Source: a virus. From it: a DNA stretch of 10,125 nucleotides. The translations under genes and the position numbers were made by a program. Shown here one piece after another: positions 6,084-10,078 of the stretch. The notes under the pieces were generated by a model. It ran no database searches, was not told the origin of the DNA, and saw nothing but the letters and a program-made list of their open reading frames with translations. Positions within the stretch are counted from its first letter, which is position 1. The number at the start of each line of letters is the position of its first letter. The DNA lies in UHGV virus genome UHGV-0288291; one strand, written 5' to 3'.

Positions 6084-6371
6084 TCACAACCCCATCCACA
6101 AAAGCCATGCATCACGCTGTTCAACCGGTCGGTTATAAAACGCCTCACGTACAGCGCGATTAAACTCAGGAATGAAAACCCATTTTTCACCGGCACGAGC
6201 CTTCGGTTTGCAAGGATCACGCAATTCAATAATTGGTAATTTATTTGCCTTCACCATTTCACTGACGGCTGTCTTTGGCTTCCCTAATAAATCAGCAAAT
6301 TTATCCACATGAACCGCATCAAGCGGATACTGAATCACATAATTTTCAGCGTCCATATATGGTACCCTCAT
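6084..6371 (-). CDS. cox: Cox-like excisionase / early repressor of the lysogenic promoter
   Basis: First gene of the early operon, divergent from C. C-terminal ...RDAWLLWMGL resembles the P2 Cox C-terminus as I recall it. Alternative start at 6356 (MDAENYV..., 90 aa) has an AGGG at reasonable spacing. Confidence 0.7.
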   Translation of the reverse strand: MRVPYMDAENYVIQYPLDAVHVDKFADLLGKPKTAVSEMVKANKLPIIELRDPCKPKARAGEKWVFIPEFNRAVREAFYNRPVEQRDAWLLWMGL

Positions 6372-6492
6372 AGGATCCAGCCCTTTCTAAACCACTCAAA
6401 ACCGTTTAGATGCTGGTTTATTCTCAAATCAATGGAACCTATATAGGTTCCAGTTTTGAGGGAATTTAGTCCCTATATAGGCACCATGTCAA
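6372..6492. promoter_or_regulatory. C/cox immunity switch region with palindromic operator-like repeats
   Basis: Perfect 18-bp palindrome GGAACCTATATAGGTTCC (6434-6451); related CCCTATATAGG (6471-6481) about 34 bp away; degenerate CCCTCATAGG (6365-6374). Also an inverted pair TCAAAAC (6397-6403) / GTTTTGA (6454-6460). Confidence 0.6.
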
Positions 6493-6786
6493 ATGAAATT
6501 AAGCGAAAAGATTAAGGCCTTGCGTGAGGCTGAAGGGCTAAGCCAATCAAAATTCTGTGAAATCATAGAGTTACCGCTAAGCACACTTAAAAAATATGAA
6601 GGAGGAAACTTTGAACCCGGTGGCACAGCTTTGCTAAAAATCACTATGCATCCCACATTCCAAAAATATGCTCTATGGCTTATGACAGATAAAACCGCGC
6701 CGGACGCAGGACAAATCGCACCGGCTCTCGCGCACATTGGGCCAGAGTCAACAGAGTCCAACCACTCCGCGAAAAGGATTGGCTAA
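6493..6786 (+). CDS. C: Immunity repressor C (P2 C-like, HTH), 97 aa
   Basis: Located directly upstream of int on the same strand. ...GQIAPALAH... matches my recollection of the P2 C repressor C-terminal region. The ATG at 6486 is out of frame and hits a stop. Confidence 0.8.
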   Translation: MKLSEKIKALREAEGLSQSKFCEIIELPLSTLKKYEGGNFEPGGTALLKITMHPTFQKYALWLMTDKTAPDAGQIAPALAHIGPESTESNHSAKRIG

Positions 6787-6855
6787 CTCTATATAAAGAT
6801 TACATTTTCACCATTTGCTACCAAGATGGTGAATACAGCGCCGGAGGGCTTTCTT

Positions 6856-7836
6856 ATGGCAATTAAGAAGCTCGATGATGGTCGCTATGAAGTGGACATT
6901 AGACCTCGCGGTCGCGACGGAAAACGCATCCGCAGGAAATTCGAAAGAAAAGCTGAAGCACTAGCATTTGAGCGATACACAATCGCCAATGCCAGTCAGA
7001 AAGAATGGGGAGGCCAGCGAGCAGACCGCCGGACTTTGAGTGAGTTGCTGGACATCTGGTGGAAATATCACGGGCAAAACCACGAGCATGGAACAAAAGA
7101 GTTTAATCATCTACTCAAAACCATCAGCGGCATAGGTGATATACCAGTGAGCAGGATGAGCAAAAGGGCTTTGATGGATTATCGTTCCATGCGACTACGT
7201 GATGGTATCAGTGCCGCAACGATAAACCGTGACATGTACCGATTATCCGGCATGTTCACAAAATTAATTCAATTGGATGAATTTTCCGGGCAACACCCAA
7301 TTCACGGACTGCCGCCACTGGCGGAGGCCAACCCTGAAATGACGTTCTTGGAAAAAGCAGAAATCGAAAAACTGTTAAATGTTTTGGCTGGTGATGACTT
7401 ACTTGTCGCGCTTTTATGTCTGAGCACCGGAGGAAGATGGACGGAAGTTGCCACGCTAAAACCAGCACAGATTACAAATTGCAGGGTTACCTTCCTGAAA
7501 ACCAAAAACGGTAAAAAGCGAACCGTGCCGATTTCTGAGGAACTGGAGAAAAAAGTTAAAGAGGAGGCCAGCGCCAAATTATTCAAAGTTGATTATGAGA
7601 AATTTTGCGGGATTTTACGCAGAGTGAAACCTGATATACCACCCAATCAGGCAACCCACATCCTGCGGCATACATTCGCAAGCCATTTCATGATGAATGG
7701 GGGCAATATAATCGCACTGCAACAGATTCTGGGACATGCGAGCATTCAGCAGACGATGGCCTATGCGCACCTTGCGCCTGACTATCTGCAAAATGCCGTC
7801 GCTCTGAATCCACTAAAAGGCGGAGTGACGTTATAA
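6856..7836 (+). CDS. int: Tyrosine integrase (P2 Int-like), 326 aa
   Basis: The first ATG with an SD (GGAGGG, 6843-6848) gives MAIKKLDDGRYEVDIRP...; the track start at 6826 is upstream of this. C-terminal catalytic region HILRHTFASHF...LGHASIQQTMAYAHL carries the R/H-x-x-R/Y signature. Confidence 0.9.
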   Translation: MAIKKLDDGRYEVDIRPRGRDGKRIRRKFERKAEALAFERYTIANASQKEWGGQRADRRTLSELLDIWWKYHGQNHEHGTKEFNHLLKTISGIGDIPVSRMSKRALMDYRSMRLRDGISAATINRDMYRLSGMFTKLIQLDEFSGQHPIHGLPPLAEANPEMTFLEKAEIEKLLNVLAGDDLLVALLCLSTGGRWTEVATLKPAQITNCRVTFLKTKNGKKRTVPISEELEKKVKEEASAKLFKVDYEKFCGILRRVKPDIPPNQATHILRHTFASHFMMNGGNIIALQQILGHASIQQTMAYAHLAPDYLQNAVALNPLKGGVTL

Positions 7837-8161: not shown

Positions 8162-8563
8162 ATGGCAACTCTTAAATCAGTGATGGCAATAGCCACCTTA
8201 ATAATTTCACTCAACGCAAACGCGAATGATATTAAAACCCTTCAAAAGCAGCTTAAACCATGGCAACCCCTAGAAATCACGAATAAAAACAACTCGCTTA
8301 CGGTGGTGCTTCCTGGCAAAGAAATCTCTCCTGACGCCTACAACAACCTGATTATGACTGGTGTATGCGCACCAGTCTGGACAAAAGACACGCCTGTTTC
8401 ATATCTCAAAAAAATCAAAGAAATAAGCATAGTTAATCAATATAAATCCATCGGTTATGTTTTTTCCGAACCATTAAAAACATGCAATGAAATAGGTTCG
8501 TTGACGCCTAAACAGGGGCAAGTGTTACTTTCATCCCAAACACGTCTTTACACAGGGAAATAA
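8162..8563 (+). CDS. Hypothetical secreted/periplasmic protein, 133 aa; AT-rich moron between int and ogr
   Basis: SD AAGGA 7 nt before the ATG. N-terminal Sec-type signal peptide MATLKSVMAIATLIISLNANA with an AxA-like cleavage motif and no lipobox Cys. Mature part is K/N/S/T-rich with two Cys. GC is visibly lower than the flanking phage genes. Terminators on both sides. Confidence 0.7.
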   Translation: MATLKSVMAIATLIISLNANANDIKTLQKQLKPWQPLEITNKNNSLTVVLPGKEISPDAYNNLIMTGVCAPVWTKDTPVSYLKKIKEISIVNQYKSIGYVFSEPLKTCNEIGSLTPKQGQVLLSSQTRLYTGK

Positions 8564-8914: not shown

Positions 8915-10078
8915 TCACTCATCATCTTCTGTTTCGTACTCCACATCAGAAAGCCTGACCTCAAGCTCCAGGGACGTCGTGAAGCCGCTATTATTCAGAA
9001 AATGTGTCACCTTAGTGATTGTCCAGTCCTGCTCGTCTATGACGCGCTTAAAGCCTGACACTTTAACCGGTGTTTCCGTGTAAATATCTGCCCGACCGGT
9101 AGCCAGGCTGATGGAGAACTCCGCAACGCCCCGTTGCAGTTTATCCCACTTCGCCTGAGCGGCGCGCATGGCCTGCGCTTTCGTGGCATATACCGTGGTC
9201 AGGGCAAAAACATTGTCAGCCTCACCGGCCATATATTCACCTTCGCGCGCTTCCGGTACTTTTGGCGCTTTCTTCTGCCTGACCGGTTTCGCTTTTGGGT
9301 GCTCCAGTGCGCGCAGGTGTTTTTCTTTCTTTTTGCGTTTCAGTTTTATCTTCTGCTTTTGCGGCTTCGGGTCTTTGGTGTGAAGCCACTTTGCCGTTAC
9401 GCCGGTATAGGCTCCACGGTCAGCAATCGCAAAATGATGACGGTCGCCGTCGCTGCGGGTGATGGTAATCTGCGGGATTTTTTTACCGCTGGCCGTCACC
9501 CCCTGCCCCGCTTTGAGAAACAACAGTTTTCCCATTTTTACCGACACCTCACCGCCGTTGCGTTCAGCAAGGCGGGTCAGGAATTTTGCATCAGACTCCT
9601 GCGACTGGTCGATGTGCGGGATTTTAATTCCGGCCAGTGACGGAGCGACACTGGCTTCCAGCCTGTTACGGGAGGCTATCGCCTCAACAATCGCACCGAG
9701 CGTGGTGTCATGCCAGGAGCCTTCACGGCGGGAATTGAGCGTCCCGCGAAAATCTGCACTCCGGGCGCGGATGGTGACCACATCCGGTGCGCCCCGGTGT
9801 TCAACCTCATCAACGGTAAATTTCCCTTTGCATACCAGAGCAAAACCTTTCCAGCCTATATACACCGTCAGGACAGCGCCACGAACCGGCAGCCCGACCT
9901 GCCCGTCGGCATCGTTCAGTTCAATATCAAGCTGGTCAGCCTCAAAGCCCCGGTTATCCGTCAGGGTCATGCTCATCAGACGGTCGCTGATATTGCCGGT
10001 AATATCCCTGCTGTCGAGCATCAGCATGTAATCCGGCGTCAGCGTACTGCCTGCATCAAATGTCAGCGCATCCAGCAT
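8915..10078 (-). CDS. D: Phage tail protein D (P2 gpD-like), 387 aa
   Basis: Same strand and immediately upstream of ogr, as in P2. Length matches P2 gpD. Start ATG overlaps the upstream stop (TAATG). Confidence 0.85.
   Translation of the reverse strand: MLDALTFDAGSTLTPDYMLMLDSRDITGNISDRLMSMTLTDNRGFEADQLDIELNDADGQVGLPVRGAVLTVYIGWKGFALVCKGKFTVDEVEHRGAPDVVTIRARSADFRGTLNSRREGSWHDTTLGAIVEAIASRNRLEASVAPSLAGIKIPHIDQSQESDAKFLTRLAERNGGEVSVKMGKLLFLKAGQGVTASGKKIPQITITRSDGDRHHFAIADRGAYTGVTAKWLHTKDPKPQKQKIKLKRKKKEKHLRALEHPKAKPVRQKKAPKVPEAREGEYMAGEADNVFALTTVYATKAQAMRAAQAKWDKLQRGVAEFSISLATGRADIYTETPVKVSGFKRVIDEQDWTITKVTHFLNNSGFTTSLELEVRLSDVEYETEDDE

What the first reader, a model, noticed from the sequence alone, without database searches (positions are those of the whole stretch)
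6365..6492. Palindromic operator candidates in the C/cox switch region
A perfect 18-bp palindrome GGAACCTATATAGGTTCC (6434-6451) and a related half-site CCCTATATAGG (6471-6481) are centred about 34 bp (roughly three helical turns) apart. A degenerate third copy overlaps the cox start. A perfect palindrome differs from the direct-repeat operator I recall for P2 C, so this phage may carry a distinct immunity specificity. The TATATA cores could double as -10 elements, giving direct repressor/promoter overlap.
Basis: partly seen in the sequence, partly recalled or inferred. Interest (0 to 1): 0.45.

Follow-up and report, generated by a model that had tools for sequence, protein, structure and literature searches.

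The report
Repressor operator pair of a P2-like phage
The palindrome and its partner are very probably the two binding sites through which this P2-like phage's immunity repressor C shuts off the early lytic promoter; this is an ordinary kind of element, unusual only because each site is a true palindrome in a family known for direct-repeat operators.

Summary
The palindrome is in fact 20 bp long (TGGAACCTATATAGGTTCCA, 6433-6452). A second site (6469-6484) shares the exact 10-bp core CCTATATAGG and a 16-bp consensus GnnCCTATATAGGnnC, and the two centres are 34 bp apart.

The window is a P2-like (Peduovirus) phage. Its C repressor is 100% identical to that of Yersinia phage L-413C.

By homology with the annotated P2 and WPhi switches, the early promoter Pe lies on the minus strand: -35 TTGACA at 6492..6487 and -10 TAAATT at 6468..6463. 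The two sites therefore flank the Pe -10, as O1/O2 do in P2, with the 34-bp spacing of WPhi.

Three lines of evidence support a C operator:
- The sites change together with the C DNA-binding half across about 14 immunity classes, not with Cox.
- They are intact in at least 95% of about 429 E. coli prophages that carry this C.
- The two lytic phages with an intact C gene, L-413C and R18C, each carry one private substitution in each site.

The TATATA cores are not the promoter -10 elements. The "third copy" at the cox start is not supported.

An inverted repeat at the start of the Pe transcript recurs in every class examined. Its role is unexplained, and it may act at the RNA level.

Verdict: a real operator pair in a class with no experimentally located operator, of modest interest.

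The parts
6433..6452 (.). Site A (equivalent of O2): perfect 20-bp palindrome TGGAACCTATATAGGTTCCA with core CCTATATAGG at 6438-6447. It lies at about +5 to +24 of the predicted Pe transcript.
   Evidence: sequence and chance. (co-varies with site B across C classes). (the 35-mer containing it matches, essentially all at 100%, in 416 E. coli genomes). (private substitutions G6435T in L-413C and G6447A in R18C).
6469..6484 (.). Site B (equivalent of O1): GTCCCTATATAGGCAC, 14 of 16 positions dyad-symmetric, with core CCTATATAGG at 6472-6481. It lies in the spacer between the Pe -35 and -10.
   Evidence: Position matches P2 O1 and WPhi O1 relative to TGTCAA. (35-mer intact in 407 genomes). (G6481T in L-413C, C6473A in R18C). 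(dyad symmetry 7 of 9, P=0.03 against shuffles).
6487..6492 (-). Pe -35 hexamer TTGACA, abutting the C start codon.
   Evidence: Scan. The same TGTCAA is annotated as the Pe -35 in P2 and lies inside the annotated WPhi Pe promoter. It is conserved in nearly all C classes.
6463..6468 (-). Pe -10 hexamer TAAATT (18-nt spacer), between sites A and B. The predicted +1 is near 6457-6456.
   Evidence: The P2 annotated -10 is at the equivalent place. Other classes have TAGATT or TATATT there. The +1 is inferred from the end of the WPhi promoter feature.
6493..6786 (+). C, the immunity repressor: 97 aa with an HTH_3 domain.
   Evidence: Pfam HTH_3. (P2 C structures 2XCJ/2L49, E=1.9e-21 over residues 3-97). 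(100% identical to L-413C gpC).
6084..6356 (-). cox: 90 aa from ATG 6356, preceded by GAGGG. An alternative ATG at 6371 gives 95 aa.
   Evidence: Phage_Cox, E=1e-23. Most database records annotate the 273-nt version.
6423..6428 (.). Outer left arm CTCAAA of the extended inverted repeat around site A.
   Evidence: I1, I9. (hairpin -18.4 kcal/mol on the + strand and -16.4 on the - strand, z about -4.7 on both). Analogous arms occur in all classes.
6455..6460 (.). Outer right arm TTTGAG of the extended inverted repeat.
6353..6362 (.). CCATATATGG over the cox start codon.
   Evidence: not within 2 mismatches of the core. (retained in heteroimmune P37). (no third match in a whole phage genome).

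Best explanation
Sites A (6433-6452) and B (6469-6484) are the two operator sites of the L-413C-type C repressor. They are the counterparts of O2 and O1 in P2 and WPhi.

Proposed mechanism:
- One symmetric C dimer binds each dyad-symmetric site, with its two helix-turn-helix units reading the two GGAACC(T)ATA-like halves.
- The sites lie 34 bp apart and bracket the -10 hexamer of the early promoter Pe. Site B fills the -35/-10 spacer and site A covers about +5 to +24.
- Occupancy of both sites blocks RNA polymerase at Pe, silences cox-B-A, and so maintains lysogeny and superinfection immunity.
- Relieving convergent Pe transcription would indirectly favour Pc, and so C and int.

What is shown:
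- The sequence anatomy.
- Homology of C, Cox and Pe to the P2 and WPhi switches.
- Co-variation of the two sites with C.
- Population conservation of the sites.
- Clustering of private substitutions in both sites in two lytic derivatives.

What is inferred:
- Actual binding by C.
- One dimer per site.
- The position of +1.
- That the substitutions cause the lytic phenotype.
For: 1. Family context. C is a P2 C homologue (E=1.9e-21). cox carries Phage_Cox. int follows C.

2. Promoter. A TTGACA-18-TAAATT promoter is the only promoter-like hit in 6200-6900. Its -35 is the same TGTCAA that P2's GenBank record annotates as the Pe -35, with O1, the -10 and O2 in the same order.

3. WPhi precedent. 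The experimentally defined WPhi half-sites (TATTGGTGAC, two copies) are also 34 bp apart and flank the -10.

4. Co-variation. Across 14 C classes, site A resembles site B of the same class more than site B of other classes: mean 9.86 against 8.20 of 12, and 0 of 20,000 permutations reached the observed value. Relatives with the same recognition helix (LPLSTLKKYE: L039, L083) keep the GGAACC(Y)ATA half-site in both sites.

5. The sites follow C, not Cox. Cox is 88% identical to P37 Cox and 82% to WPhi Cox. The C N-terminal half is only 44% identical to either, and the sites differ.

6. Conservation. Among E. coli genomes with this switch (429 at 95% identity or more), the site A 35-mer matches in 416 and the site B 35-mer in 407. 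The adjacent position 6463 carried the change in 3 of 4 sampled variants, out of 106 genomes that differ somewhere in 6428-6492.

7. Natural genetics.
- L-413C is described as a clear-plaque or lytic mutant of temperate L-413 (PMC3448106; PMC2893161). R18C is described as virulent (PMC6823313). Both encode a C identical to the window's.
- Each has exactly one private substitution in each site, all at consensus positions: G6435T and G6481T in L-413C, G6447A and C6473A in R18C.
- The chance of hitting both 12-position consensus sets is 6.6e-4 for L-413C and 4.3e-3 for R18C over 2544 nt, or 0.043 and 0.016 when restricted to the spacer.
- Five other isolates have intact sites, and HQ103 is instead broken in C.
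- In P2 and WPhi a mutation in one half-site leaves repression intact while mutating both relieves it; in P2 Hy dis, whose O2 already carries a natural mutation, one further point mutation did (PMC1904268).
Against: - There is no binding or expression data for this class. The held literature states that only the P2, P2 Hy dis and WPhi operators had been located as of 2007.
- Nearly all sequences that carry this C are over 99% identical, so conservation alone is weak evidence.
- L-413C also has private changes in the Pe -10 region (A6464G), in Cox (P51L) and in B (R72P). Any of these could contribute to its phenotype.
- 'Virulent' for R18C rests on the authors' wording. No lysogeny test is described.
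- The double-hit pattern was noticed after looking at the data.
- The C classes used for the co-variation test are phylogenetically related, so the permutation P value overstates independence.
- A palindrome here could also be selected as a hairpin (see the rival explanations).
Confidence: 0.85

Rival explanations
1. The palindrome is selected mainly, or additionally, as a nucleic-acid hairpin. On this reading, a stem-loop at the extreme 5' end of the early (Pe) transcript, also present in the Pc leader, affects mRNA stability, promoter escape or the outcome of convergent transcription. The operator function is secondary or separate.
For: - An inverted repeat sits just downstream of the Pe -10 in all 14 IMG/VR classes and in WPhi. 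P2 was not scored in that run; its repeat was read by eye from the sequence.
- In WPhi, P37 and similar classes the stem is built from arms (CAAAAGGT / ACCTTTTG and variants) that are not repeated at site B. The operator half-site sits in the loop. Symmetry is therefore maintained independently of the operator sequence, and arm sequences differ between classes while staying complementary.
- In the window, outer arms CTCAAA / TTTGAG extend the stem asymmetrically (a 4x2 internal loop). That suits a hairpin better than a symmetric protein site. The fold has z = -4.7 on both strands.
- The WPhi Pe promoter feature ends so that transcription starts at the base of the stem.
- Ahlgren-Berg et al. 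report an unexplained rise of about 100-fold in Pe-cat expression when the phage DNA flanking the Pe promoter/operator (upstream of the -35 and downstream of O2) is replaced by vector. The 3' arm lies in the replaced downstream flank.
Against: - It does not explain site B, the shared 16-bp consensus, or the paired substitutions in L-413C and R18C. The site B changes cannot affect the stem.
- There is no consistent strand bias in folding energy across classes, so no G-U signature points to one transcript.
- There is no Rfam match.
- The DNA removed in the WPhi construct also contains Pc, so promoter interference explains that result equally well.
- The terminator-like call on the minus strand has a poor U-tract, and other classes lack one.
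Confidence: 0.2
2. The TATATA cores are themselves -10 hexamers of Pe and/or Pc, so that C competes directly with RNA polymerase for the same bases.
For: - TATATA matches TATAAT at 4 of 6 positions.
- On the + strand, TTTATT (6417-6422), 17 nt, then TATATA (6440-6445) is a weak promoter-like arrangement (read).
- Pc promoters in this family are weak and poorly matched to consensus.
Against: - The promoter scan finds only TTGACA-18-TAAATT on the minus strand.
- That promoter aligns with the annotated P2 Pe and the WPhi Pe.
- Classes with other operators (WPhi, P37, L043 and others) have no TATATA at these positions yet keep the -35 and a TAnnnT -10 between the sites.
- The WPhi Pc promoter abuts the cox ATG, and the P2 Pc -10 lies about 40 bp upstream of O2.
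Confidence: 0.07
3. The palindromes are binding sites for Cox (the lytic repressor and excisionase) or for a host protein, rather than for C.
For: - Cox binds within the Pe-Pc region in P2, and at high concentration spreads towards Pe (PMC3936717).
Against: - Phages with 82-88% identical Cox have unrelated sequences at sites A and B, whereas the sites track the C helix-turn-helix region.
- P2 Cox boxes are 9-bp units (TTAAA(G/C)NC(A/C)), not 16-20-bp palindromes.
- The cox-proximal half of the spacer (6373-6415) is the part conserved with Cox.
Confidence: 0.03

Closest known systems
WPhi C operator (O1/O2, TATTGGTGAC twice; Liu & Haggard-Ljungquist 1999; Ahlgren-Berg et al. 2007, PMC1904263)
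   Same: - Two copies of a 10-bp sequence, 34 bp centre to centre, flank the Pe -10.
- O1 ends 5-6 bp from the TTGACA -35, which abuts the C start codon.
- O2 lies just after +1, inside an inverted repeat.
- Cox is 82% identical.
   Different: - The WPhi repeats are direct and the 10-mer is not self-complementary. Here each copy is a palindrome, and site A is a perfect 20-bp one.
- C is 56% identical overall and 44% over the DNA-binding half.
- By my reading, WPhi O1 extended to 18 bp (AGTCACCAATAGGTTACT) is itself 14 of 18 dyad-symmetric. The difference may therefore be one of degree.
P2 C operator (O1/O2, GTTTAGAT twice, 22 bp apart; Ljungquist et al. 1984; Massad et al. 2010, PMC2995052)
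   Same: - Same switch layout: C and int face cox-B-A.
- The Pe -35 overlaps the C start.
- The half-sites flank the Pe -10.
- C has the same fold family.
   Different: - 8-bp non-palindromic direct repeats, two turns apart.
- C is 42-43% identical.
- P2 C is the textbook 'binder of non-palindromic direct repeats'.
Classical dyad-symmetric operators of small HTH (XRE/Cro-type) phage repressors, such as 434 or P22 c2
   Same: - A 14-20-bp palindrome is read by a symmetric HTH dimer.
- Massad et al. note that the P2 C dimer superimposes on P22 c2 bound to its palindrome, with recognition helices 26 A apart.
   Different: - Those switches use three adjacent operators shared by the repressor and Cro, between divergent promoters.
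- Here there are two sites 34 bp apart at one of two convergent promoters, and Cox uses other sites.
Coliphage 186 CI operators (inverted repeats at pR plus distal FL/FR sites)
   Same: - A P2-like phage in which the immunity repressor recognises inverted repeats at the early promoter.
   Different: - 186 CI is a two-domain protein of about 190 aa that forms a wheel of dimers, with a cII gene and distal sites.
- Here C is 97 aa, and no further copies exist in a whole phage genome.

Membership tests
P2-type C/Cox transcriptional switch (Peduovirus) | Immunity repressor is a protein of about 100 aa homologous to P2 C | tested here: met
   97 aa. phmmer against the PDB hits P2 C (2L49/2XCJ) at E=1.9e-21 over residues 3-97. 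HTH_3 domain.
P2-type C/Cox transcriptional switch (Peduovirus) | cox (Phage_Cox) is transcribed towards C-int across a spacer of about 110-150 bp; gene order int-C | cox-B-A | tested here: met
   Phage_Cox E=1e-23, integrase, GPA. The spacer is 136 bp (6357-6492).
P2-type C/Cox transcriptional switch (Peduovirus) | Pe -35 TTGACA overlaps or abuts the C start codon, with the -10 17-18 bp further on | tested here: met
   Scan. The same arrangement is annotated in P2 and WPhi.
P2-type C/Cox transcriptional switch (Peduovirus) | Two repeated half-sites 2-3 helical turns apart at Pe (flanking the -10 in P2 and WPhi) | tested here: met
   Two exact copies of CCTATATAGG, 34 bp apart, on either side of 6463-6468.
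P2-type C/Cox transcriptional switch (Peduovirus) | Half-sites are non-palindromic direct repeats (the feature stressed for P2 C) | tested here: not met
   Each copy is self-complementary. Site A is a perfect 20-bp palindrome and site B is 14 of 16 dyad-symmetric. Because the core is palindromic, the pair is at once a direct and an inverted repeat.
P2-type C/Cox transcriptional switch (Peduovirus) | Both half-sites must be lost to escape repression | tested here: inconclusive
   Indirect only. The two lytic derivatives with an intact C each carry one private change in each site. This matches the reporter data for P2 and WPhi in PMC1904268. No experiment was possible.
P2-type C/Cox transcriptional switch (Peduovirus) | C binds the sites and represses Pe | not testable with these tools
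   Needs EMSA or footprinting and reporter assays.
186-type CI/Apl switch | Two-domain CI of about 190 aa, a cII gene, and distal operator sites | tested here: not met
   C is 97 aa. There is no further copy of the consensus in a 31.2-kb genome with the same switch.
Intrinsic terminator or known structured RNA | GC-rich stem followed by a U-run, or a match to a curated RNA family | tested here: inconclusive
   There is a terminator-like call on the minus strand. However, the tail UUGAUUUGAG is weak, the stem lies at about +5 of the Pe transcript, and other classes lack a U-run. There is no Rfam hit below E=0.8.

The most novel reading that the evidence does not exclude
Two linked readings remain open.

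(a) C repressors of P2-like phages in general bind 16-20-bp dyad-symmetric or half-symmetric sites as conventional HTH dimers.
- The famous 'direct repeats' of P2 and WPhi would then be the better-conserved halves of such sites.
- This window's class, with a perfect palindrome and naturally occurring double-operator escape mutants (L-413C, R18C), would be the cleanest system for testing how a symmetric C dimer reads DNA.

(b) The inverted repeat kept at the first 20-40 nt of the Pe transcript in every class is a separate, undescribed regulatory element: a 5' stem-loop, or a pause or interference device at the point where the convergent Pe and Pc transcripts overlap.
Probability: 0.3. Interest if true: 0.55.

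Novelty: new member of a known kind. Interest (0 to 1): 0.33.

Why it matters
- This immunity type sits in about 8% of complete E. coli genomes and in the plague-diagnostic phage L-413C, yet its operator has not been located experimentally in the literature I could read.
- Pinning the operator down gives a sequence-level explanation for why L-413C and R18C are lytic despite an intact repressor gene. It also predicts which prophages confer immunity to them, which is relevant to phage diagnostics and therapy.
- A class whose half-sites are true palindromes is a useful natural contrast for the open structural question of how the symmetric P2 C dimer recognises direct repeats.
- Apart from that, it is an ordinary repressor-operator arrangement.

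Tried and rejected
- Third operator copy at the cox start. Rejected: more than 2 mismatches from the core, retained in heteroimmune P37, and no third hit in a whole genome.
- TATATA cores as -10 elements. Rejected on homology with the P2 and WPhi promoters.
- Intrinsic terminator. Rejected: weak U-tract, and other classes have none.
- Known RNA family. Nothing below E=0.8.
- Strand bias of hairpin energy as a test of RNA against DNA function. Mixed signs across classes, so uninformative.
- A generic 'best 10-mer repeat' scan over 51 C classes. It mostly picked up the hairpin arms and gave no clean statistic beyond showing that direct, inverted and palindromic arrangements all occur.
- Locating Pc in the window. 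No convincing hexamers. The WPhi -35 TTGATT lies in a roughly 21-nt segment absent here, so Pc is left unassigned.
- Literature. Karlsson et al. 2006 (PMC1482927), Liu & Haggard-Ljungquist 1999 (PMC113030) and Garcia et al. 2008 are not held. I could not check whether they already point out these repeats or the L-413C substitutions. A full-text search for CCTATATAGG found no phage paper. The record for the PhiD124 immunity-class representative (AM159060) is not in the collections.

Full report
**What is in the sequence**

The window carries the lysis-lysogeny switch of a P2-like phage.
- cox runs on the minus strand, 6084-6356. ATG 6356 is preceded by GAGGG. An upstream ATG at 6371 gives the 95-aa version annotated in L-413C.
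- C runs on the plus strand, 6493-6786, and is 97 aa.
- int runs on the plus strand, 6826-7836.
- Replication genes B and A lie further along the minus strand, and gpD lies on the other side.

The 136-bp spacer holds a perfect 20-bp palindrome, TGGAACCTATATAGGTTCCA (6433-6452). A second site shares the exact 10-bp core CCTATATAGG (6472-6481) and also the outer G and C. Both sites therefore fit GnnCCTATATAGGnnC, at 6435-6450 and 6469-6484. The centres are 34 bp apart.

The palindrome is the only perfect one of 12 bp or more in the window. One this long arose in 18 of 2000 shuffles of the window and in 2 of 5000 shuffles of the spacer. The core occurs nowhere else in the window, even with one mismatch. 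The 16-bp consensus with up to two mismatches occurs only at these two places in a complete 31-kb phage genome with the same switch.

**Identity of the phage and of C**

- The cox-C region (6084-6830) is 99-100% identical to Yersinia phage L-413C, R18C, vB_YpM_50, P24B2, FSL SP-004 and others.
- A 501-bp stretch (6300-6800) matches prophages in 469 of 5426 complete E. coli genomes. Of these, 429 are at 95% identity or more, and 40 belong to a class at about 75% identity, like phage P37.
- C is 100% identical to L-413C gpC and is a clear homologue of P2 C (PDB 2XCJ/2L49, E=1.9e-21). It is only 42-43% identical to P2 C and 56% to WPhi C. The N-terminal helix-turn-helix half is 33% and 44% identical respectively.
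- This is therefore a distinct but already sequenced, and very common, immunity type.

**Where the promoters are**

- The only sigma-70-like match in 6200-6900 lies on the minus strand: TTGACA (6492..6487), 18 nt, then TAAATT (6468..6463).
- The P2 GenBank record annotates exactly this TGTCAA, overlapping the C start codon, as the Pe -35. It places O1, the Pe -10 and O2 next in that order.
- The WPhi record annotates its Pe promoter at the same place.
- Other C classes keep the -35 and have TAGATT or TATATT at the -10 position.
- Mapped onto the window, site B lies in the -35/-10 spacer, where P2 O1 and WPhi O1 lie. Site A begins about 5 nt after the inferred start.
- The published WPhi half-sites (TATTGGTGAC, two copies) are also 34 bp apart and flank the -10. 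The geometry here is the WPhi geometry.
- The TATATA cores are therefore not the Pe -10.
- The WPhi Pc promoter abuts the cox ATG, and the P2 Pc -10 is about 40 bp upstream of O2. The cores are therefore unlikely to be the Pc -10 either. I could not assign Pc in the window.

**Evidence that the sites belong to C**

1. Co-variation.
- IMG/VR yielded 64 loci whose C proteins range from 100% to 59% identity.
- In each class, the sequence at the site A position resembles the sequence at the site B position of the same class. Examples: GGAACCCATATAGG in both sites of L039, GTTC-N7-GAAC in both of L060, and an 18-mer repeated in inverted orientation in P37 and L049.
- Over 14 classes, within-class A-B similarity exceeds between-class similarity: 9.86 against 8.20 of 12, with 0 of 20,000 permutations reaching the observed value.
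- Relatives with the same recognition helix (LPLSTLKKYE) keep a GGAACC(Y)ATA half in both sites.

2. The sites follow C, not Cox.
- P37 Cox and WPhi Cox are 88% and 82% identical to the window's Cox, and P37 shares the cox-proximal half of the spacer.
- Both nevertheless have unrelated sequences at sites A and B and a divergent C DNA-binding half.

3. Conservation.
- The 35-mers containing site A and site B match in 416 and 407 E. coli genomes respectively.
- Position 6463, between the sites, carried the change in three of four sampled variants, out of 106 genomes that differ somewhere in 6428-6492.

**Natural genetics**

- L-413C is described as a clear-plaque or lytic mutant of the temperate phage L-413 (PMC3448106; PMC2893161). 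R18C is described as a virulent P2-like phage (PMC6823313). Both encode a C identical to the window's.
- I compared 35 near-identical sequences over 2544 nt.
  - L-413C has six private substitutions. Three are in the spacer: G6435T (site A), G6481T (site B) and A6464G.
  - R18C has fifteen. Two are in the spacer: G6447A (site A) and C6473A (site B).
  - All four site hits fall on specified positions of the 16-bp consensus. Two of them hit the same position (the last G of the core), one in each site.
  - Apart from these, the only other polymorphism inside either site in the panel is T6433C, at the outermost base pair of site A.
- The chance of hitting both sites is 6.6e-4 for L-413C and 4.3e-3 for R18C, or 0.043 and 0.016 when only the spacer is considered.
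- Five other isolates have intact sites. HQ103 instead carries a 7-bp deletion in C.
- The pattern matches experiments on the characterised relatives. [quoted passage not shown] In P2 Hy dis, whose O2 already carries a natural mutation, one further point mutation sufficed (PMC1904268).
- Caveats:
  - L-413C also carries Cox P51L and B R72P.
  - No lysogeny test is described for R18C.
  - I noticed the pattern after looking at the data.

**What the palindrome adds**

- The P2 family is known for recognising non-palindromic direct repeats, although the C dimer is symmetric and superimposes on P22 c2 bound to its palindrome (PMC2995052).
- Here each site is dyad-symmetric. Because the core is palindromic, the pair is simultaneously a direct and an inverted repeat.
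- Across 16 classes, the site B position shows more dyad symmetry than shuffled sequence (sum 90 against 77.6 +/- 3.2). The signal is heterogeneous: strong in the window, L063, L057, L060 and WPhi O1, and absent in four classes.
- In 79 further loci from other species, direct, inverted and palindromic arrangements all occur. CCTATATAGG-type cores with different flanks recur in several genera.
- The most economical model is one dimer per site. In this class both helix-turn-helix units make equivalent contacts. That is inference.

**A second, unexplained layer**

- In every class examined, an inverted repeat lies just after the Pe -10.
- In the window, site A itself forms the stem and is extended by the outer arms CTCAAA (6423-6428) and TTTGAG (6455-6460) across a 4x2 internal loop.
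- In WPhi, P37 and relatives, the stem is made of arms that are not repeated at site B, with the O2 half-site in the loop.
- The WPhi promoter annotation implies that the Pe transcript begins at the base of this stem.
- Symmetry is therefore kept regardless of the operator sequence. This points to a function of its own, either as RNA (a 5' stem-loop on the early mRNA, also present in the Pc leader) or as DNA.
- Folding energies show no consistent strand bias, and no Rfam family matches. I cannot decide between these.
- Ahlgren-Berg et al. noted, and did not pursue, a rise of about 100-fold in WPhi Pe-cat expression when the phage DNA flanking the Pe promoter/operator (upstream of the -35 and downstream of O2) was replaced by vector. 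The replaced downstream flank holds the 3' arm, but also Pc.

**Verdict**

- The operator interpretation is well supported, with confidence about 0.85.
- The distinct immunity specificity is true but already implicit in public data.
- The -10 idea and the third copy are not supported.
- This is a new, and unusually symmetric, member of the known P2/WPhi operator type.
- The held literature says only the P2, P2 Hy dis and WPhi operators had been located by 2007. Karlsson et al. 2006 and Garcia et al. 2008, which I could not read, may already mention the repeats or the L-413C changes.

Noticed in passing
window 6420-6465; also L067 621-646 (P2), L068 638-668 (WPhi), and the loci listed: An inverted repeat or hairpin directly downstream of the Pe -10 is present in every C immunity class examined. 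Where the operator half-site is not palindromic, the stem is built from separate arms. In WPhi the mapped Pe promoter ends at the base of the stem. No strand bias and no Rfam match were found, and the function is unknown.
   Followed up: partly
window 6463 (and 6464): A6463G changes the last base of the predicted Pe -10 (TAAATT to TAAATC). It was present in three of four sampled E. coli variants, out of 106 of 420 genomes that differ from the window in 6428-6492. One genome has GG at 6463-6464. It may be a promoter-down allele of resident prophages.
   Followed up: partly
L002 (L-413C) and L020 (R18C), equivalent to window 6435, 6447, 6473 and 6481: The two phages reported as clear-plaque or virulent have an intact C protein but one private substitution in each operator site. 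This is a likely sequence basis for their lytic behaviour. L-413C also has Cox P51L (G6205A) and B R72P.
   Followed up: yes
L076 (Yersinia phage HQ103), equivalent to window 6649-6655: A 7-bp deletion inside C truncates the repressor to 61 aa. This is a different route to a lytic P2-like phage within the same immunity class.
   Followed up: partly
window 6486-6515: An out-of-frame ATG at 6486 (9 codons, MSNEIKRKD) overlaps the Pe -35. P2 C starts at the equivalent ATG (MSNT...), whereas this class starts 7 nt later at 6493 with no obvious Shine-Dalgarno. In several sister classes the right half of site B (TAGGAG or TAGGAA) could serve as the C ribosome-binding site.
   Followed up: no
window 6386-6392 and 6405-6411: TCTAAAC and GTTTAGA form an inverted pair in the cox-proximal half of the spacer. 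That half is conserved with heteroimmune P37, whose Cox is 88% identical. The pair is a candidate Cox binding site. Position 6411 is polymorphic: T in the window, C in most relatives.
   Followed up: no
window 8162-8563 (+): A 133-aa ORF between int and the ogr/gpD region has no Pfam match. P37 has an ORF of similar size at the same place. It may be a moron next to attP. The presence of gpD (8915-10078, minus strand) after int shows that the window comes from a phage or circular form, not from a prophage junction.
   Followed up: partly
window 6356 vs 6371: The cox start is annotated inconsistently in public records: 95 aa from ATG 6371 in L-413C and 569R9, but 90 aa from ATG 6356 in RefSeq and most others. 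ATG 6356 has the better Shine-Dalgarno (GAGGG, 8 nt upstream).
   Followed up: partly
L095, L099, L085, L124, L139: CCTATATAGG-type cores with different flanking bases recur at both operator positions in P2-like prophages of Dryocola, Providencia, Brenneria and Pseudomonas, sometimes with other spacings (for example 29 bp in L095). Specificity among these classes may therefore lie in the flanks.
   Followed up: no
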